A stretch of 64,000 bases of DNA, from IMG/VR virus record IMGVR_UViG_3300012944_000001, positions 47,915 to 111,914 of that record. One strand, written 5' to 3'. Position numbers and translations under genes: made by a program. This DNA comes from a virus. Positions 6,386-44,544 of this stretch are shown here, one piece after another. The notes beneath the pieces are model-generated. The model made no database searches. It saw only the letters and a program-made list of their open reading frames with translations, and was not told where the DNA came from. The number at the start of each line of letters is the position of its first letter. Position 1 is the first letter of the stretch.

Positions 6386-6414
6386 TTGACAGAGACTAAC
6401 AACTCTGTTAGTAT
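6386..6414 (+). promoter_or_regulatory. promoter upstream of the tRNA-Asn/Y-RNA/Ro60 unit
   Basis: TTGACA-17-TAGTAT. Confidence 0.7.
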
Positions 6415-6522: not shown

Positions 6523-6583
6523 CCTTAGCCCCTTTTCAAGCCTCTCGATGAAGCTCAAATGAGAAGGGCCAAAATTTAAATTT

Positions 6584-6705
6584 GTGACGATGCGAAGAAT
6601 AGAGTTACTTCGGTTAATTAGTGGTTCGATTCCATTCTCTGTAGTAAAACACAGATAGGCGAGTATAAAAACTCGTACATACTTTATTCAAATTTTTCTA
6701 GTCAC
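6584..6705 (+). ncRNA. Y-RNA-like copy 1
   Basis: gtgac/gtcac closing stem; GATGCG...GTTACTTC...TTTTTCTA motif; inner stem gaatagagt/actttattc; T-arm-like gtggttcgattccat. Confidence 0.75.
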
Positions 6706-6711
6706 TTAAAC

Positions 6712-6804
6712 TTGATAGAAGGTTGGGGTAGCCTGCTAGCGGCTGTAATCGGGCGAAAACGTCCCTTGTAATACTGATACGAACGTTCACATCCCTTCTA
6801 TCAA
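6712..6804 (+). ncRNA. candidate structured RNA inside the Y-RNA array (different family)
   Basis: 11-bp closing stem ttgatagaagg/ccttctatcaa. Confidence 0.45.
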
Positions 6805-6811
6805 CTAACTT

Positions 6812-6952
6812 GACAGCGATGCGCAGATAAGAGATACTTCACAGGGAACTCCGGGTCGTAGGTTCGAATCCTACTCTATCGACTCTTCGGTAGATAGCTC
6901 AGTGGTAGAGCAGGGGTATATAAAGAACTTTTATCGACTTTTTCTAGCTGTC
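6812..6952 (+). ncRNA. Y-RNA copy 2, YrlA-like with permuted tRNA domain
   Basis: gacagc/gctgtc stem; shared motif; T arm, then closed acceptor hairpin, then D arm (tagctcagtggtagagc). Confidence 0.85.
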
Positions 6953-6960
6953 TTTATTTT

Positions 6961-7053
6961 TATGACCAATGCGTAGGCACGGGGTTACTTCAAATTAATT
7001 GATAATTGACGGGCATAGCCCAGTAAACCTCAGCCGATTATTTCTAGGTCATA
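6961..7053 (+). ncRNA. Y-RNA-like copy 3
   Basis: tatgacc/ggtcata stem; AATGCG...GGTTACTTC...TATTTCTA. Confidence 0.75.
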
Positions 7054-7065
7054 TAACTTAATATT

Positions 7066-7140
7066 TCTACCCGATGCGACGCCGCCGGTTACTTCAACCC
7101 TTCGCAGAAAAAATCCGGCCGCACATTTTTCTAGGGTGGA
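7066..7140 (+). ncRNA. Y-RNA-like copy 4 (minimal)
   Basis: tctaccc/gggtgga stem; GATGCG...GGTTACTTC...TTTTTCTA. Confidence 0.75.
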
Positions 7141-7147
7141 TCATTTT

Positions 7148-7255
7148 AGTTCCGATGCGTGGATTACTGGTTACTTCAATGCTAATGAAAAGGTACGGTT
7201 CGAATCCGTTTAAGGCATGGCGCCCACACACCAGAAATCATTATTTCTAGGAACT
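7148..7255 (+). ncRNA. Y-RNA-like copy 5
   Basis: agttcc/ggaact stem; shared motif; anticodon-like hairpin ttca-atgctaa-tgaa plus T arm acggttcgaatccgt. Confidence 0.75.
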
Positions 7256-7265
7256 TATTAATCTT

Positions 7266-7305
7266 CCCCTTGGTTAGGCATAGCCTTACTTGAGGGGTTT
7301 ATTTT
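7266..7305 (+). terminator. hairpin + U tract between the Y-RNA array and Ro60
   Basis: cccct...agggg followed by tttattttt. Confidence 0.45.
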
Positions 7306-7340
7306 TATCTACTTAACGTACCACAACATAGGAGGATACA

Positions 7341-8960
7341 ATGGGTAAGTTCAATAAGGTTAACAGCACAGGCGTTCAGTCACCTATAAAGACTGTAGGA
7401 AAGATTATTAATCATGATGCTCGTGTAGCTTTTGCGCGGGATACCCAGTCTGAACTGTATTTGTTTGCAGTATCCAACTTTGTTGGTCAGGATACGTTCT
7501 ATGAGAATGCTAAGGCCAGCGATGATCGCTTTGTTATCCTTTCTCAAAAGGCCGCTGTAGCAGATCGTGCCTGGTTTGGCTACTTCGTGAGCTGGCTTCG
7601 TAACGAGGCATTCATGCGTAGTGCTGCTGTTGTGGCGGCTGTTGAGGGTGCCAAGGCATTACACGCGGCTGAGTCGTTTGTAGGGGCTGAGAATGCCTCC
7701 TGGCCCCGTCATATAGTTAGTGCTGCTCAAGCACGAGCTGATGAGCCCGGTGAAGTATTAGGATACTATGAAGCTAAGTACGGTAAGAATTTCCCGGCTT
7801 GGTTAAAGAAGGGTGTTGCGGACGGCGCAAAGCGTCTCTATAATGAGTATTCTCTTCTTAAGTACGATACAGTTTCTCACGGTTATCGTTTTTCTGATGT
7901 AATTCAGCTTACTCACCCTAAGCCTGATAATGAAATACAGGAACAACTATTTAAGTACGCGATGAATAGTCGATACAATAACACAGAGTTTGTTGGCCGA
8001 GAGAATCATCTGCCCATGATAGAGACTCGTAAGGCTATTATGGAAATGCCTGTTCGTAGTCGAAAGGCACTTATAGGTAAGGGCGGAACAGAGGTACAGA
8101 GCCTATTCAAGAATGCAGGAATGACGTGGGAAGCTCTGTCTGGCTGGCTTCAGGGTCCTATGGATGCTGCGGCTTGGGAAGCCGTTATTCCTTCTATGGG
8201 ATACATGGCGCTGCTTCGTAATCTTCGTAATTTCCAGAATGCTGGTATCCGTGCTAAGGTGCTGAAGGAAGTTCTTGGTAAGCTTGCTGATTTCGAGCAG
8301 GTTGCAAAGAGTAAGCAGTTCCCTTTCCGATTCCTTGCTGCTTACCAGGCAAATAAGGATAATCTACAGATCTCTGCCGCGCTAGAGAGTGCTTTGCAGG
8401 CTTCTTTGGCCAATGTCCCTTCCCTTAATGGGAATAGCTTGATTCTAGTTGATCGCTCTGGTAGCATGTTCCAGACTGGTGGAGGTGTCCAAGGACTCGA
8501 TCGTGCAGACACGGCTGCTATTTTCGGTACCGCTCTGGCTATGCAAGCAGAAAAGGCTGATCTTGTGCAGTACGGTTCAGCATGGTATGGTCAGGATAGT
8601 TCTTCCAAGGTAGTATCTTTCCGTAAGGGGAATTCTATTCTGCCGATGCTCAGTAAGTTTGAGAATCTTGGCGGAACAGACACCACTGGAGCTATTAAGC
8701 GACACTTGACACCGAAGCATGACCGAGTTATTCTCATCACTGATGAGCAGTACAACGGCTATGGTGTCGATCCAGGAAGCATTGTTCCTGCTAAGATTCC
8801 GATGTACACTTGGAATCTTGGAGGATATCAAGCGGCTCACAGTGAGTCTGGTTCAAAGAAGCGTCACACCTTTGGCGGATTGACTGATAAGGCATTTGTA
8901 CAGATTCCTATGATTGAGGCTGGGCAGAATGCTGTATGGCCTTGGGAGGCTAAGAAGTGA
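7341..8960 (+). CDS. rsr: Ro60/Rsr-like TROVE-domain RNA-binding protein with C-terminal vWA domain
   Basis: TFYE, R.DEPGE, MTWEALS, MGYMALLRNLRN, SKQFPFRFL motifs; vWA MIDAS LVDRSGSM, GGTD, ITDEQ. Confidence 0.93.
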   Translation: MGKFNKVNSTGVQSPIKTVGKIINHDARVAFARDTQSELYLFAVSNFVGQDTFYENAKASDDRFVILSQKAAVADRAWFGYFVSWLRNEAFMRSAAVVAAVEGAKALHAAESFVGAENASWPRHIVSAAQARADEPGEVLGYYEAKYGKNFPAWLKKGVADGAKRLYNEYSLLKYDTVSHGYRFSDVIQLTHPKPDNEIQEQLFKYAMNSRYNNTEFVGRENHLPMIETRKAIMEMPVRSRKALIGKGGTEVQSLFKNAGMTWEALSGWLQGPMDAAAWEAVIPSMGYMALLRNLRNFQNAGIRAKVLKEVLGKLADFEQVAKSKQFPFRFLAAYQANKDNLQISAALESALQASLANVPSLNGNSLILVDRSGSMFQTGGGVQGLDRADTAAIFGTALAMQAEKADLVQYGSAWYGQDSSSKVVSFRKGNSILPMLSKFENLGGTDTTGAIKRHLTPKHDRVILITDEQYNGYGVDPGSIVPAKIPMYTWNLGGYQAAHSESGSKKRHTFGGLTDKAFVQIPMIEAGQNAVWPWEAKK

Positions 8961-12984: not shown

Positions 12985-13065
12985 ATGATTAAATGTTCAA
13001 GATGCAAAGCAAAGAATATAAAAGGTAGTCGTTGGTGTCATAGATGTGGCAAGGAGTTAAGTTAA
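12985..13065 (+). CDS. Zn-ribbon microprotein, 26 aa (not in ORF track)
   Basis: AAGGAG RBS; MIKCSRCKAKNIKGSRWCHRCGKELS; coupled to thioredoxin. Confidence 0.65.
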   Translation: MIKCSRCKAKNIKGSRWCHRCGKELS

Positions 13066-13379
13066 TGTATTCGGTAACTGATGCTACATTTCATGAAGTA
13101 TTACACAACAATAAGTCTGTCATTGTAGATTTTTGGGCACCCTGGTGCGGTCCTTGTCGTCAAGTAGCACCTGTGCTAGACTCTTTATCACAAGAGCATA
13201 CAGATATTACTTTTGTCAAAATGGACATTGATACAAATCATATGACATCTAATAAGTATGAAATATTATCTGTTCCAACAATTGCACTATTTATTAATGG
13301 TGATTTAGTAAAAACAGTAGTTGGAGCAAGACCGAAAGTAGCTCTTGAAAGAGAATTACTTTCTGCCCTATATCAATAG
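13065..13379 (+). CDS. trxA: thioredoxin
   Basis: VDFWAPWCGPC active site. Confidence 0.95.
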   Translation: MYSVTDATFHEVLHNNKSVIVDFWAPWCGPCRQVAPVLDSLSQEHTDITFVKMDIDTNHMTSNKYEILSVPTIALFINGDLVKTVVGARPKVALERELLSALYQ

Positions 13380-13887: not shown

Positions 13888-14124
13888 GTGCGTCCATGGA
13901 CTAAAGATGAAAGAGAAGCATATAAAGATTCGACCATGCATTATCACAAGTACGATCTCTATGGATATGTAGATGATCTTATTGAGACTTGGCACACTTC
14001 TATGGGCCTAAATGTTTCTCTTTATAGTTTCCTAGGACTTTACGAAGGAGAAGTGTCAGACTGGGCCGGTAAGAATATCATTCCGGATCGTATTGTAGTT
14101 ATGTGGGAGGAAGGAGAATACTAA
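13888..14124 (+). CDS. hypothetical protein
   Basis: GAGGAGG RBS. Confidence 0.7.
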   Translation: MRPWTKDEREAYKDSTMHYHKYDLYGYVDDLIETWHTSMGLNVSLYSFLGLYEGEVSDWAGKNIIPDRIVVMWEEGEY

Positions 14125-15200
14125 TGCTTATACATGATTTACTTAACATCCGGGATTTAGATACTATGCTTACGGAAGGTTATGTAAGATTTGGTATTCA
14201 TCCCATTTTTCCAAATGTTCGTATATTTAACTACACTGAAAAGGCTCAATTCGCCAACGAGTGGAATGACATAACTCGACAATGCCGTGGTCTTATAGTT
14301 GATTGGGATACCAAAGAAGTACTTGCGCGCCCTTTTGACAAGTTCATGAATTATGGTCAAGATCAGGCAGACGTAATTCTTGCTGGCTATTCAGTTAAGG
14401 TATATGACAAGTTAGACGGATCTCTGGGAATTCTATTTCGTCGTCCTGATGGTTTTTGGGAAATAGCTACAAGAGGTTCCTTTCAATCAGACCAGGCGTC
14501 GCATGCCACAATACTTCTTCGTCAAAAGTACAGTTCGTTTTTACTGGGATTAAATAGTGATCTTACATATATGTTTGAAATCATCTATCCACAAAACCGT
14601 ATCGTATTGGATTACGGAGACAAAGATTCCCTGGTATTACTTGGTGCCAGAAGTATTGACGAAGGCTCTACGTACGGGCCTGAGAGCCTCCCAGATTGGC
14701 ACTGGGACCGAACTACTACCTTCCCTTACAAGACTCTCAGTGAGGCGCTGAAGGCCCCTCCTAGACCTAATGCAGAGGGTTACGTGGTCTACTTCCCGGA
14801 GTTGGACCACAGAGTCAAGATCAAGCAGGATGATTACATAGCGATGCACAAGATCGTTACGGGCTTGACAGAGCGTCGTATCTGGGAGAACATGAAGGAA
14901 GGTAAAACTCTAGAAGATCTTGTAAATATTATTCCAGACGAATGGCATGATTGGCTCCAAGAAACGTATACTAAGATCAAGAAAAATTATTGGGCTGAAT
15001 GGAGTACTATTCTTGAGGAGTTTAATACACATACCATGTGGTTGGACGTGGCTAATTATCAAAAATGGTCCCGAAAAGATTTTGCTTTGCGAGTTAAAGA
15101 CTCAAGATATAAAGGCTTTATGTTTTTAATGTTGGATAATAACAACGTAACTGACAAGGTATGGCAATTGGTTCGACCACCCGCTGAGTCATTACTGTAA
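14124..15200 (+). CDS. ATP-dependent RNA ligase, T4 Rnl1-like
   Basis: CRG.I, RPFDKF.N, KLDGS (motif I), FEII, EGYVV, RVKIK. Confidence 0.92.
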   Translation: MLIHDLLNIRDLDTMLTEGYVRFGIHPIFPNVRIFNYTEKAQFANEWNDITRQCRGLIVDWDTKEVLARPFDKFMNYGQDQADVILAGYSVKVYDKLDGSLGILFRRPDGFWEIATRGSFQSDQASHATILLRQKYSSFLLGLNSDLTYMFEIIYPQNRIVLDYGDKDSLVLLGARSIDEGSTYGPESLPDWHWDRTTTFPYKTLSEALKAPPRPNAEGYVVYFPELDHRVKIKQDDYIAMHKIVTGLTERRIWENMKEGKTLEDLVNIIPDEWHDWLQETYTKIKKNYWAEWSTILEEFNTHTMWLDVANYQKWSRKDFALRVKDSRYKGFMFLMLDNNNVTDKVWQLVRPPAESLL

Positions 15201-43745: not shown

Positions 43746-44544
43746 CTTTGATGCGCTGTATAGATCTATAGTTACTTCTAATACAGATACTTCAAATTCA
43801 GGCAAGATAAGAGTTCAGTGTCCTCAAATAGCAGGCTTGGCGGAGATAAGACAGGCGGAGCCATTTAATAGCAATATGCCTGTGCCTACTGTGGGATCTA
43901 TTGTCTGGATAGCTTTCAGTGGCGGAGATGTAACTAAGCCCTTTTATCTGAATAACACAAACTATATTTATTTACTATCTGATGGCGCCACTATACAAAC
44001 AAAATCATTAACATCAGGAATTAATAACGATGCGGTAGTATTGTATCTAGCCAGCGGTCCTGCTGGTACTGAAACAGGAACCACGAATCCTCACCTAACA
44101 ATAGTTGATAATAACTTTACAACTCCGGCAGATATTCATTTATCTGGTAATGTCATTAAAGTAAATACTTCTGGGGTCTATCATGTGTGGCACAATATAA
44201 CTCCAAATACTGGTTGGACACAAGCAGGTGGCGGCTTTCAAAATCTTCAGTATCGATTAGATACTAATGACAATTTAGTTCTCAGCGGTTCTGTATCTAC
44301 CACAAGTGCTTTCGGTGCAGGAACTCATCAGATTACTGGAGTAAATCTTGCATCAGATTATCTGCCCGCATTTGATAGTAGAGTTACTGGGGGAGAACAT
44401 ACAAGTTCTACCAATACTTGGAAAGCTCAAGCACTTGTAGATCTCACAGCTATTGGAACTATTAATGTAACCAGCAGCGTTGCTTTTGCTATTGGAGATG
44501 TTTTTTATATTAACTGCACAATACCTCTGCACAATATATCTTAA
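43735..44544 (+). CDS. baseplate spike (gp5/gpV OB-fold)
   Basis: G.IRV..P...P.VG..VWI.F.GGD...P. Confidence 0.82.
   Translation: MQLNFDALYRSIVTSNTDTSNSGKIRVQCPQIAGLAEIRQAEPFNSNMPVPTVGSIVWIAFSGGDVTKPFYLNNTNYIYLLSDGATIQTKSLTSGINNDAVVLYLASGPAGTETGTTNPHLTIVDNNFTTPADIHLSGNVIKVNTSGVYHVWHNITPNTGWTQAGGGFQNLQYRLDTNDNLVLSGSVSTTSAFGAGTHQITGVNLASDYLPAFDSRVTGGEHTSSTNTWKAQALVDLTAIGTINVTSSVAFAIGDVFYINCTIPLHNIS

What the first reader, a model, noticed from the sequence alone, without database searches (positions are those of the whole stretch)
6812..6952. Array copy 2 carries a complete circularly permuted tRNA domain
Seen, in order: actcc (3' strand of the anticodon stem), ggtc, T arm gtagg-ttcgaat-cctac, acceptor-like stem closed as a hairpin (tctatcga-ctct-tcggtaga), D arm tagctcagtggtagagc, then ggggt pairing back with actcc. 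The anticodon loop is opened and grafted onto the Ro-binding stem. Known: this is the YrlA topology. Inference: an uncharged tRNA-elbow mimic that could recruit or titrate tRNA-modifying enzymes, RNase P or tRNA-targeting nucleases.
Basis: partly seen in the sequence, partly recalled or inferred. Interest (0 to 1): 0.75.

Follow-up and report, generated by a model that had tools for sequence, protein, structure and literature searches.

The report
Phage YrlA-type tRNA-mimic Y RNA
This 141-base stretch is a real small-RNA gene of a known kind, a YrlA-type Y RNA, in which a tRNA lacking its anticodon loop is read in rearranged order and mounted on a stem that binds the Ro60 protein; the phage encodes Ro60 right next to it, so this is an unannotated new example, not a new kind of thing.

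Summary
Window 6812-6952 (+) holds every tRNA part except the anticodon loop, in permuted order and at exact tRNA spacing: anticodon-stem 3' strand, 5-nt variable loop, T arm, closed acceptor hairpin, U8-A9, D arm, anticodon-stem 5' strand. This domain sits on a two-helix scaffold.

- **tRNA likeness:** rejoined in normal order with any 7-nt loop, ARAGORN calls a canonical 75-nt tRNA. In native order it calls none.
- **Family match:** the element is the genome's best match to Rfam YrlA (37.7 bits, E 4.7e-8, below the 69-bit cut-off). It lies 389 nt upstream of a TROVE/vWA Ro60 gene on the same strand.
- **Conservation:** a model built from it finds a full-length homologue just upstream of Ro in 21 of 22 phage loci (Kela's match covers the core only) and in eight actinobacterial chromosomal rsr loci (seven Streptomycetaceae, one Nonomuraea). 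95% of cells pair, and 34 of 36 pairs show compensatory changes.
- **Interpretation:** the YrlA reading is supported.
- **Novelty:** YrlA as a permuted tRNA, in phages too, is published (Chen 2014; Wang 2018). This is a new member of a known kind, in BRock-like Streptomyces phages.

The scan noted this same stretch in overlapping windows of the same genome, not on other DNA.

The parts
6812..6817 (+). Outer stem P1, 5' strand (GACAGC). It pairs with 6947-6952.
   Evidence: Helix 1 is 96.8% paired, and all 6 pairs show double changes across 27 homologues.
6818..6823 (+). GATGCG motif. This is the local form of the YrlA 5' motif GNCGAAN0-1G, the presumed Ro60 contact.
   Evidence: It recurs in all five array units at fixed spacing to TACTTC (5 array matches against 0.32 expected window-wide). 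Rfam consensus CgaAUGC. Motif definition from Chen 2014.
6826..6833 (+). Helix 2, 5' strand (GATAAGAG). It pairs with 6928-6935 (CTTTTATC).
   Evidence: minimum-free-energy fold. Helices 2-3 are 89-90% paired, and every pair shows double changes.
6834..6840 (+). ATACTTC motif (WTACTTC in all units). It contains the YUAY-like element conserved in YrlA RNAs.
   Evidence: YUAY is described in Chen 2014. The UA kink is described in Wang 2018.
6848..6852 (+). Anticodon-stem 3' strand (ACTCC, tRNA positions 39-43). It pairs with 6913-6917.
   Evidence: The stem scores 5/5 pairs at canonical spacing in 11 homologues and 4/5 in 2 more, with differing sequences.
6853..6857 (+). Variable loop GGGTC (positions 44-48). 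C48 is the partner of G15.
6858..6874 (+). T arm GTAGG-TTCGAAT-CCTAC.
   Evidence: Helix 5 is 99.3% paired.
6875..6894 (+). Acceptor-like hairpin. It has 7 bp (positions 66-72 with 1-7, including G3.U70), a U(-1):A73 pair, and a CTCT loop that begins with C74.
   Evidence: Helix 6 is 96.1% paired, and all 8 pairs show double changes.
6895..6912 (+). U8-A9, the D arm GCTC-AGTGGTA-GAGC, and A26.
   Evidence: Helix 7 is 100% paired.
6913..6917 (+). Anticodon-stem 5' strand (GGGGT, positions 27-31).
6928..6935 (+). Helix 2, 3' strand (CTTTTATC).
6939..6946 (+). TTTTTCTA, the 3' side of the conserved internal loop next to P1 (TTTCTAG in all units).
6947..6952 (+). Outer stem P1, 3' strand (GCTGTC).
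7341..8960 (+). Ro60 (Rsr) gene, 539 aa, the presumed protein partner.
   Evidence: Pfam TROVE 1.3e-18 plus a weak VWA_2 match. It is 61% identical to the 'RNA-binding protein' of phage BRock and 47-51% identical to Streptomyces chromosomal Rsr.
6584..6705 (+). Array unit 1. It has the same scaffold, with a T arm only as cargo.
   Evidence: R1 scores 42.7 bits.
6961..7053 (+). Array unit 3. It has the same scaffold and no tRNA-like domain.
7066..7140 (+). Array unit 4. It has the same scaffold and a minimal cargo.
7148..7255 (+). Array unit 5. It has the same scaffold, an anticodon-arm-like hairpin and a T arm.
   Evidence: R1 scores 26.6 bits.
6386..6414 (+). Sigma-70-like promoter (TTGACA-17-TAGTAT with an upstream TG) ahead of tRNA-Asn and the array. 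It is the likely start of a common precursor transcript.
   Evidence: consensus match only.
7266..7306 (+). Terminator-like hairpin plus U tract, between the array and the Ro60 gene.
   Evidence: -15.9 kcal/mol, z -2.33. Equivalent hairpins occur at the same place in BRock (z -4.6) and Alone3 (z -5.2).

Best explanation
The element is a phage-encoded member of the YrlA class of bacterial Y RNAs.

**Shown**
- It is a conserved, structured, non-coding element. It has a two-helix scaffold (P1, the GATGCG//TTTCTA internal loop, helix 2, WTACTTC) carrying a complete tRNA body (anticodon stem, variable loop, T arm, closed acceptor hairpin, D arm) in permuted order, without an anticodon loop.
- It always lies just upstream of a Ro60 gene on the same strand.
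- The same architecture is found upstream of chromosomal rsr in Streptomyces, the likely host lineage.

**Inferred from published work on the family**
- The scaffold binds the phage Ro60 ring.
- The tRNA-like L-shape is the effector module. It is recognised at its elbow by a host tRNA-binding protein or exoribonuclease, so the RNA tethers Ro60 to that partner or gates access to Ro60. PNPase is the partner in D. radiodurans, S. Typhimurium and Thermus phage phiLo.
- The RNA is probably cut out of a common precursor that starts before tRNA-Asn and mostly ends at the hairpin before the Ro60 gene.
- The cassette sits in a 28-tRNA cluster that ends with an Rnl1-type RNA ligase. This suggests that the phage brings its own RNA quality-control and repair kit, or that it re-directs host PNPase.
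For: **Anatomy**
- Read directly.
- Minimum-free-energy fold of 6848-6917 equals the permuted cloverleaf.
- ARAGORN un-permutation test.

**Family match**
- Rfam YrlA 37.7 bits, E 1.5e-6 locally.
- It is the best hit in the whole 111,914-bp virus genome, E 4.7e-8, with the next hit at 19 bits.

**Ro60 partner**
- TROVE and vWA domains, gene starting 389 nt downstream on the same strand.

**Conservation**
- Model R1 finds a full-length hit within about 1.2 kb upstream of Ro (mostly within 600 nt) in 14 of 14 IMG/VR loci and in BRock, Alone3, Atuin, Klebsiella phi1_175008, VanLee, Neville and Kradal. In Kela it matches the tRNA-like core only.
- It also hits eight actinobacterial chromosomal rsr loci, seven Streptomycetaceae and one Nonomuraea, at up to 86.9 bits.

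**Covariation**
- 95.4% of cells paired, against 34-47% when partners are slid.
- 34 of 36 pairs have double changes; 0 of 500 shuffles reach the observed values.
- Alignment-free check of the anticodon stem: 5/5 pairs in 11 sequences and 4/5 in 2.

**Non-coding**
- No ORF of 40 aa or more lies between 6293 and 7073.

**Literature**
- Chen 2014 (PMC4201824): YrlA near Ro60 in 254 bacteria and 22 phages, modified by TruB and DusA; M. smegmatis YrlA is cut by RNase P and CCA-tailed.
- Wang 2018 (10.1101/312249): crystal structure, permuted-tRNA description.
- PMC12135203: a phage Ro60 binds two phage Y-like RNAs and host PNPase.

**Context**
- 28 tRNAs.
- Rnl1-type ligase at 14103-15200.
- RNA ligase adjacent to Ro in phage Kela.
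Against: - The Rfam gathering score is not reached (37.7 against 69 bits). The same is true of the actinobacterial chromosomal copies (35-52 bits), so the cut-off is conservative for actinobacterial YrlA.
- The 5' motif is AGCGATG, not a perfect GNCGAA(N)G.
- The covariation alignment was fitted to the model and therefore leans towards it. It is only partly offset by the anchored check.
- There are no expression, Ro-binding or modification data for this phage.
- The effector of YrlA is unknown even in Salmonella (Wang 2018).
- The full-length minimum-free-energy fold uses an alternative pairing of GGGGT with ACTTC.
Confidence: 0.87

Rival explanations
1. Processed, two-piece variant. Host RNase P cuts between U(-1) and C1 in the acceptor hairpin, as it does in M. 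smegmatis YrlA. The 5' half is then trimmed and CCA-tailed. The functional RNA would be a split tRNA mimic with free acceptor ends, possibly alanylated through G3.U70 and A73. This refines the main explanation rather than excluding it.
For: - The acceptor stem has exactly 7 bp between the T stem and U8, followed by A73-C74.
- Stems of 7 or more contiguous base pairs occur in about half of the tRNA-like modules scanned, including most close orthologues.
- Chen 2014 showed that the 7-bp stem makes M. smegmatis YrlA an RNase P substrate in vitro and in vivo, with CCA addition.
- The window copy has G2-C71, G3.U70 and A73.
Against: - The hairpin is closed by a tight 4-nt loop with an extra U(-1):A73 pair. 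This leaves no single-stranded 3' tail for RNase P.
- G3.U70 is not conserved in the orthologues: G-C in BRock, Atuin, L005, L006 and the Klebsiella phage, A-U in Alone3. It looks like a neutral intermediate.
- Position 1:72 is C-G, not G-C.
- Chen 2014 saw no cleavage for Salmonella or Deinococcus Y RNAs.
Confidence: 0.3
2. One reading: an uncharged tRNA-elbow decoy whose main job is to titrate host tRNA-modifying enzymes, RNase P or tRNA-targeting defence nucleases, independently of Ro60.
For: - The tRNA elbow is complete.
- TruB, DusA and RNase P do act on bacterial YrlAs (Chen 2014).
- The phage invests heavily in tRNA supply and repair.
Against: - There is no anticodon loop, so the known anticodon nucleases have no target.
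- The element is strictly linked to Ro60 and to a Ro-type scaffold in every locus. A free decoy would not need either.
- A single-copy RNA among 28 phage tRNAs and the host tRNA pool is a weak titrant.
Confidence: 0.08
3. A decayed remnant of two adjacent tRNA genes (a dimeric-tRNA junction) with no function of its own, or a true permuted tRNA gene used in translation.
For: - Junctions of neighbouring tRNAs in the same window score weakly with the model (33 bits at 2061-2171).
- YrlA is thought to descend from dimeric tRNAs (Wang 2018, citing Sim and Wolin 2018).
- Some sister units are annotated as tRNAs in GenBank.
Against: - The element scores 171 bits against about 33 for real junctions.
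- All helices, including the non-tRNA scaffold, are kept by compensatory changes across phages and Streptomyces.
- There is no anticodon loop, so it cannot decode.
- ARAGORN and the Rfam tRNA model find nothing in native order.
Confidence: 0.02
4. The 5' part acts at the DNA level as a promoter (TTGACA 6810-6815, 17-nt spacer, GATACT 6833-6838) that drives the downstream units and Ro60, rather than as an RNA stem.
For: - 10 of 12 consensus match.
- TTGACA is kept in BRock, Alone3, L005 and L006.
Against: - The promoter scan finds 8 sites against 5.3 expected, so it is not informative.
- P1 covaries as RNA: GACAAC/GTTGTC in L005 and CATACC/GGTATG in Atuin, where no TTGACA exists.
- A start near 6845 would destroy P1 and helix 2, which are conserved.
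- A dual role is not excluded.
Confidence: 0.05

Closest known systems
YrlA (Rfam RF02553), Y RNA-like A of S. Typhimurium and more than 250 bacteria and phages (Chen et al. 2014, PMC4201824; structure PDB 6CU1, Wang et al. 2018)
   Same: - Order of parts: Ro-binding stem, T arm, closed acceptor-like hairpin, D arm, then back to the stem.
- The conserved T-loop and D-loop nucleotides and the Levitt pair.
- A YUAY-like element.
- A 5' CGA(A)NG-type motif.
- Location upstream of Ro60 on the same strand.
   Different: - It scores 37.7 bits, against the 69-bit gathering score.
- It has no 'V' stem-loop.
- A large conserved internal loop (WTACTTC...GGAA // AAAG) lies between helix 2 and the anticodon stem.
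- The acceptor stem is 7 (+1) bp, longer than the short Salmonella stem.
- It is one of five tandem units sharing one scaffold.
M. smegmatis YrlA and YrlB (Chen et al. 2014)
   Same: - Actinobacterial type.
- 7-bp acceptor stem.
- Several Y RNAs upstream of rsr, processed from one precursor.
- A sister RNA (YrlB) with only a T arm, like unit 1 and unit 5 here.
   Different: [quoted passage not shown]
- That locus is cellular, not viral.
- It has two RNAs, not five.
Streptomyces chromosomal rsr-linked Y RNAs
   Same: - The same scaffold motifs (CGGTGCG, GATACTTC, GGAAC).
- An opened-anticodon tRNA domain.
- The same position relative to rsr.
- The Ro proteins are 47-51% identical.
   Different: - High G+C content.
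- Two units rather than five.
- Not embedded in a tRNA cluster.
Thermus phage phiLo Ro60 with Yrl1 and Yrl2 (NAR 2025, PMC12135203)
   Same: - A phage Ro60 with Y-like RNAs immediately upstream.
- It provides experimental precedent that a phage Ro60, its Y RNA and host PNPase form a complex.
   Different: - The phiLo Yrls were picked by a CGAA motif and a stem-bulge-stem shape. No tRNA-like domain is reported for them.
- The Ro proteins are only about 24% identical.
Other tRNA mimics: the tmRNA tRNA-like domain, the TYMV TLS, and permuted tRNA genes of Cyanidioschyzon
   Same: - An L-shaped tRNA fold used outside decoding.
- A permuted gene order, as in the algal genes.
   Different: - Those RNAs end in free CCA and are charged, or are re-joined into real tRNAs.
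- This one has a closed acceptor loop and no anticodon loop.

Membership tests
YrlA (RF02553; Chen 2014) | Conserved T-arm-like and D-arm-like stem-loops, with T placed 5' of D | tested here: met
   GTAGG-TTCGAAT-CCTAC at 6858-6874 and GCTC-AGTGGTA-GAGC at 6897-6911.
YrlA (RF02553; Chen 2014) | [quoted passage not shown] | tested here: met
   An 8-bp hairpin at 6875-6894. It covaries in homologues.
YrlA (RF02553; Chen 2014) | Nucleotides for tRNA tertiary contacts, including the 15:48 Levitt pair | tested here: met
   U8, A14, G15:C48, G18, G19, T54, U55, C56, A58 and G53:C61 were read from the sequence. ARAGORN accepts the rejoined form.
YrlA (RF02553; Chen 2014) | The anticodon-stem equivalent continues into a Ro60-binding stem formed by the 5' and 3' ends; there is no anticodon loop | tested here: met
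   ACTCC/GGGGT, then helix 2 and P1.
YrlA (RF02553; Chen 2014) | 5' motif GNCGAAN0-1G | tested here: inconclusive
   The window has AGCGATG (5 of 7 positions). Homologues have CCGAAG, CCGGTG or CGATG. The motif is conserved in place but is a variant.
YrlA (RF02553; Chen 2014) | Within 4 kb of a Ro60 orthologue on the same strand, and the best match in the genome | tested here: met
   It lies 389 nt upstream of the TROVE gene on the same strand. It is the top genome-wide hit.
YrlA (RF02553; Chen 2014) | Score at or above Rfam's gathering threshold (69 bits) | tested here: not met
   37.7 bits. Orthologues score 30-34 bits and the actinobacterial chromosomal copies 35-52 bits. This is a curation threshold, not a biological feature.
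YrlA (RF02553; Chen 2014) | Bound by Ro60/Rsr; carries pseudouridine 55 and dihydrouridine | not testable with these tools
   This needs co-immunoprecipitation and modification mapping.
M. smegmatis-type processed YrlA | [quoted passage not shown] | tested here: met
   Positions 66-72 (TCTATCG) pair with positions 1-7 (CGGTAGA).
M. smegmatis-type processed YrlA | [quoted passage not shown] | not testable with these tools
   Only the substrate geometry can be read. The tight CTCT loop and the U(-1):A73 pair may hinder cleavage.
tRNA (RF00005) | An anticodon loop, and 5'/3' ends meeting at the acceptor stem | tested here: not met
   There is no anticodon loop and the acceptor is closed. Neither Rfam tRNA nor ARAGORN gives a hit in native order.

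The most novel reading that the evidence does not exclude
In this phage lineage the YrlA with a tRNA-length acceptor stem may be opened by host RNase P, CCA-tailed and charged with alanine. The window copy has G2-C71, G3.U70, A73 and C74. The sister unit 5 of BRock, Alone3 and L005 keeps G1-C72, G2-C71, G3.U70, C4-G69 and A73 while the rest of its stem covaries. The result would be a two-piece, Ro60-bound, aminoacylated tRNA mimic linking RNA surveillance to AlaRS or the ribosome.
Probability: 0.05. Interest if true: 0.75.

Novelty: new member of a known kind. Interest (0 to 1): 0.25.

Why it matters
**Annotation.** YrlA-type Y RNAs sit next to Ro60 in large tRNA-rich phages of Streptomyces, Arthrobacter, Gordonia and Klebsiella. 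Standard annotation misses all of them, because Rfam scores fall below the cut-off.
- No GenBank record examined annotates one of these RNAs as a Y RNA.
- Sister units are mislabelled as tRNA-Ser in Alone3 and tRNA-Arg in VanLee.
- The element is overlaid by a spurious ORF in Klebsiella phage phi1_175008.

[quoted passage not shown] Cultivable relatives such as BRock, Alone3 and Atuin carry the Ro60/Y-RNA cassette beside tRNAs and an RNA ligase. They offer a simple genetic system to ask what the domain recruits during infection.

None of this changes the known picture of the family.

Tried and rejected
1. **Rfam at gathering thresholds.** Only tRNAs were found in the window. The YrlA hit appears only with E-value reporting.
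2. **Thermodynamic stability.** z-scores of -1.35 and -1.43 are not informative.
3. **G3.U70 as an alanine identity mark of unit 2.** Rejected as a conserved feature. Orthologues have G-C or A-U at this position.
   - In the sister unit 5 of relatives, the conserved U70 can also be explained by alternative pairing of that strand with the GATGCG motif.
4. **Recent origin from particular phage tRNAs.** The T half matches tRNA-Phe best (score 22 of 35), which is only generic T-arm similarity. The D half has no clear donor.
5. **Alternative pairing ACTTC/GGGGT from the minimum-free-energy fold.** It is perfect only in the window and drops to 3-4 of 5 pairs in orthologues, as worked out by hand. 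The tRNA-like pairing is preferred.
6. **Two further ATGCG...TACTTC matches, at 43751 and 46440.** Both lie inside long ORFs and have different spacing, so they are chance matches.
7. **Supplementary tables of Chen 2014** (the list of 22 phages and the alignments). They are not held. I could not check whether any Streptomyces phage was already listed.
8. **One paper search failed** because a term was too short.
9. **The promoter reading of TTGACA-17-GATACT.** It is kept only as a minor rival.
Full report
**What is in the sequence.** Window 6812-6952 (+) reads as follows.
- Outer stem: GACAGC 6812-6817 pairs with GCTGTC 6947-6952.
- GATGCG 6818-6823.
- Helix 2: GATAAGAG 6826-6833 pairs with CTTTTATC 6928-6935.
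- ATACTTC 6834-6840.
- A tRNA body at exact tRNA spacing follows:
  - positions 39-43, ACTCC;
  - T arm GTAGG-TTCGAAT-CCTAC;
  - positions 66-72 TCTATCG, then A73;
  - loop CTCT, then U(-1);
  - positions 1-7 CGGTAGA;
  - U8 and A9;
  - D arm GCTC-AGTGGTA-GAGC;
  - A26;
  - positions 27-31, GGGGT.

All canonical tertiary partners are present: U8-A14, G15-C48, G18/G19 with U55/C56, T54-A58 and G53-C61.

The isolated domain 6848-6917 folds by minimum free energy into exactly this permuted cloverleaf. I joined 6888-6917, a 7-nt placeholder loop and 6848-6882 in a script. ARAGORN then called a canonical 75-nt tRNA with each of four loops. It found nothing in the native order, and neither ARAGORN nor Rfam tRNA reports the region in the window.

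**More than chance.**
- Rfam YrlA (RF02553) matches 6827-6937 at 37.7 bits. E is 1.5e-6 for the 861 nt searched and 4.7e-8 for the whole genome.
- The genome is a 111,914-bp IMG/VR virus record with direct terminal repeats. The element is its best YrlA match, and the next best scores 19 bits.
- The score is below Rfam's 69-bit gathering score, which is why the default scan showed only tRNAs.
- No ORF of 40 aa or more lies between 6293 and 7073.
- The ORF at 7341-8960 (539 aa) has a TROVE domain (1.3e-18) and a weak vWA match. It is a Ro60/Rsr protein that starts 389 nt downstream on the same strand.

Being the best genome hit, within 4 kb of Ro60 and on the same strand, is the criterion Chen et al. 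2014 used to accept YrlA candidates (PMC4201824, section 5).

**Relatives.**
- DNA search finds the same region in Streptomyces phages BRock, pSt2308, Alone3, LuckySocke and GiJojo, in Arthrobacter phage Atuin and in Klebsiella phages. In all four records I retrieved, it sits in a tRNA cluster beside a gene annotated 'Ro-like RNA binding protein'.
- None of these records annotates the element itself. In the Klebsiella record a small antisense 'hypothetical protein' overlies it.
- I built a covariance model (R1) from five sequences, using the structure above.
- R1 finds a full-length match within about 1.2 kb upstream of Ro (mostly within 600 nt) in all 14 IMG/VR loci fetched with the Ro protein, and in VanLee, Neville and Kradal. 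In Kela it matches the tRNA-like core only.
- The closest cellular Ro proteins are Streptomyces chromosomal Rsr (47-51% identity).
- Eight actinobacterial chromosomal rsr loci (seven Streptomycetaceae, one Nonomuraea) carry one or two R1 matches directly upstream of rsr, at up to 86.9 bits. They share the scaffold motifs and the opened-anticodon tRNA domain.
- These cellular copies also fall short of the Rfam threshold (35-52 bits), as do the phage orthologues (30-34 bits).

The phage cassette therefore belongs to the actinobacterial branch of the family. The shortfall in score is a property of the Rfam seed, not of this element.

**Covariation.** On the 27 best matches:
- 95.4% of cells form standard pairs, against 62.5% after shuffling and 34-47% when partners are slid.
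- 34 of 36 pairs show changes on both sides.
- Every helix (P1, helix 2, anticodon stem, T, acceptor, D) is 89-100% paired.

That alignment was fitted to the model, so I also made an alignment-free check. It was anchored only on the T loop and D arm. It took the 5 nt before the 5-nt variable loop and the 5 nt after position 26, and counted how many pair. The result is 5/5 in 11 sequences and 4/5 in 2. The pairs differ between sequences: ACTCC/GGGGT, ACGCC/GGCGT, ACAGT/GTTGT, ACTTT/GAAGT, ACCGA/TCGGT, TTTGA/TCAGA and TCAAT/ATTGA.

The full 141-nt minimum-free-energy fold instead pairs GGGGT(AT) with (AT)ACTTC. That alternative is perfect only in the window and fails at one or two positions in the orthologues. 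The tRNA-like pairing is the conserved one.

**Two sub-types.** The alignment separates two sub-types.
- One has the anticodon stem opened onto the scaffold. The window's unit 2 and its orthologues belong here.
- The other has a local hairpin with a 7-nt anticodon-like loop 5' of the variable loop. This hairpin is the 'V' stem-loop of Chen 2014.

**Context in the window.**
- The element is unit 2 of five tandem units (6584-6705, 6812-6952, 6961-7053, 7066-7140, 7148-7255).
- All five share ATGCG, then 10-11 nt, then TACTTC. That is five array matches against 0.32 expected for the whole window.
- All five also share TTTCTAG (read in all five units; the exact combined pattern is matched for units 3 and 4).
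- Units 1 and 5 carry a T arm only, like M. smegmatis YrlB.
- A sigma-70-like site precedes tRNA-Asn at 6386-6414.
- A conserved hairpin with a U tract lies between the array and the Ro60 gene here, in BRock and in Alone3.

This layout suggests one precursor that is mostly terminated before the Ro60 gene.

The surrounding 14 kb holds 28 tRNA genes and ends with an Rnl1-type RNA ligase at 14103-15200. In phage Kela an RNA ligase gene directly precedes Ro. This recalls the bacterial rsr-yrlBA-rtcBA operon (PMC7790460).

**How it most likely works.**
- Shown: a conserved structured RNA with a Ro-type scaffold and a complete tRNA body, strictly linked to Ro60.
- Inferred from the family: the scaffold binds the phage Ro60. 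The tRNA-like L-shape is the effector module, recognised at its elbow (Wang 2018, 10.1101/312249).
- In D. radiodurans and S. Typhimurium the Y RNA tethers Ro60 to PNPase (Chen 2014, introduction). A phage Ro60 with its two Y-like RNAs binds host PNPase and damps its activity (PMC12135203).
- I therefore take tethering or gating of Ro60 towards a host exoribonuclease or tRNA-binding protein as the most likely mechanism.
- The 7-bp acceptor stem is the M. smegmatis type. That RNA is cut by RNase P and CCA-tailed. The same may happen here, but the tight CTCT loop and the extra U(-1):A73 pair argue for caution.
The missing anticodon loop rules out decoying anticodon nucleases.

**Comparison and novelty.** Three things are already published:
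- YrlA as a tRNA mimic encoded next to Ro60, in phages too (Chen 2014: 254 bacteria and 22 phages).
- The description as a circularly permuted tRNA with a closed acceptor loop (Wang 2018).
- A proposed origin from dimeric tRNAs (Wang 2018).

The window adds a new, unannotated member in a BRock-like Streptomyces-type phage. It also shows that the whole actinophage and Streptomyces branch is missed at Rfam's threshold. I rate it a new member of a known kind, with low to moderate interest.

The earlier notes of this scan on the same genome describe the same stretch and the five-unit array. I found none on other DNA.

**Side observations.**
- G3.U70 with A73 occurs in the window's unit 2 but not in its orthologues.
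- In unit 5 of BRock, Alone3 and L005 the set G1-C72, G2-C71, G3.U70, C4-G69 and A73 is kept while positions 5-7 covary.
- That 3' strand can also pair with the GATGCG motif. This is how ARAGORN, and the GenBank annotations of Alone3 (tRNA-Ser) and VanLee (tRNA-Arg), come to call tRNAs there.
- This could be a vestige of the dimeric-tRNA origin, a conformational switch or an AlaRS signal. It is untested.

Noticed in passing
L001:2851-2998, L002:2978-3139, L005:2269-2426: Unit 5 of BRock, Alone3 and an IMG/VR relative is a second tRNA-like Y RNA. Its acceptor hairpin keeps G1-C72, G2-C71, G3.U70, C4-G69 and A73 (the tRNA-Ala identity set) while positions 5-7 covary. The same 3' strand can alternatively pair with the conserved GATGCG motif. 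The window's own unit 5 has lost the acceptor and D arms.
   Followed up: partly
L002:2991-3064 (Alone3 tRNA-Ser(gct)); L027:2204-2275 (VanLee tRNA-Arg(tct)): These GenBank tRNA annotations lie inside Y-RNA-like units just upstream of Ro. ARAGORN builds them by using the Ro-scaffold motif as the acceptor 5' strand, with a poor D arm. They are probably mis-annotated Y RNA parts.
   Followed up: partly
window 6532-6569: A match to the Rfam abiF RNA motif (32.6 bits, gathering score 37, E 7e-4 on 861 nt) lies between tRNA-Asn and Y unit 1. By eye it is absent at this place in BRock and Alone3. It might be an antitoxin-like or anti-Abi RNA, or a chance match.
   Followed up: no
window 6712-6804: A roughly 93-nt insert between units 1 and 2 has an 11-bp closing stem (CTTGATAGAAGG/CCTTCTATCAA) and three internal hairpins, two of them with 7-nt loops, giving a cloverleaf-like shape (z -1.9). 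It has no Rfam match and is not present in Alone3 or BRock at this place.
   Followed up: partly
window 7266-7306; L001:3003-3040; L002:3142-3180: A conserved terminator-like hairpin plus U tract lies between the Y-RNA array and the Ro60 start codon in three phages. This suggests that the Y RNAs are made in excess over Ro60 mRNA.
   Followed up: partly
window 6810-6838: The 5' part of unit 2 doubles as a 10-of-12 sigma-70 consensus (TTGACA-17-GATACT). TTGACA is kept in four close relatives.
   Followed up: partly
window 14103-15200: A T4 Rnl1-type RNA ligase (PF09511, 1.7e-14) sits at the end of the tRNA cluster. A thioredoxin gene lies at 13044-13379 within the cluster.
   Followed up: partly
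L001:5160-5323 (BRock): A near-threshold match to the manA RNA motif (49.7 bits, gathering score 55.2) lies between two tRNA-Lys genes of BRock.
   Followed up: no
L004:2498-2599 (Klebsiella phage phi1_175008): A 33-aa 'hypothetical protein' is annotated antisense, right over the YrlA-like tRNA domain. It is probably a spurious ORF. The Klebsiella units use a CAGCAA-type motif instead of GATGCG.
   Followed up: no
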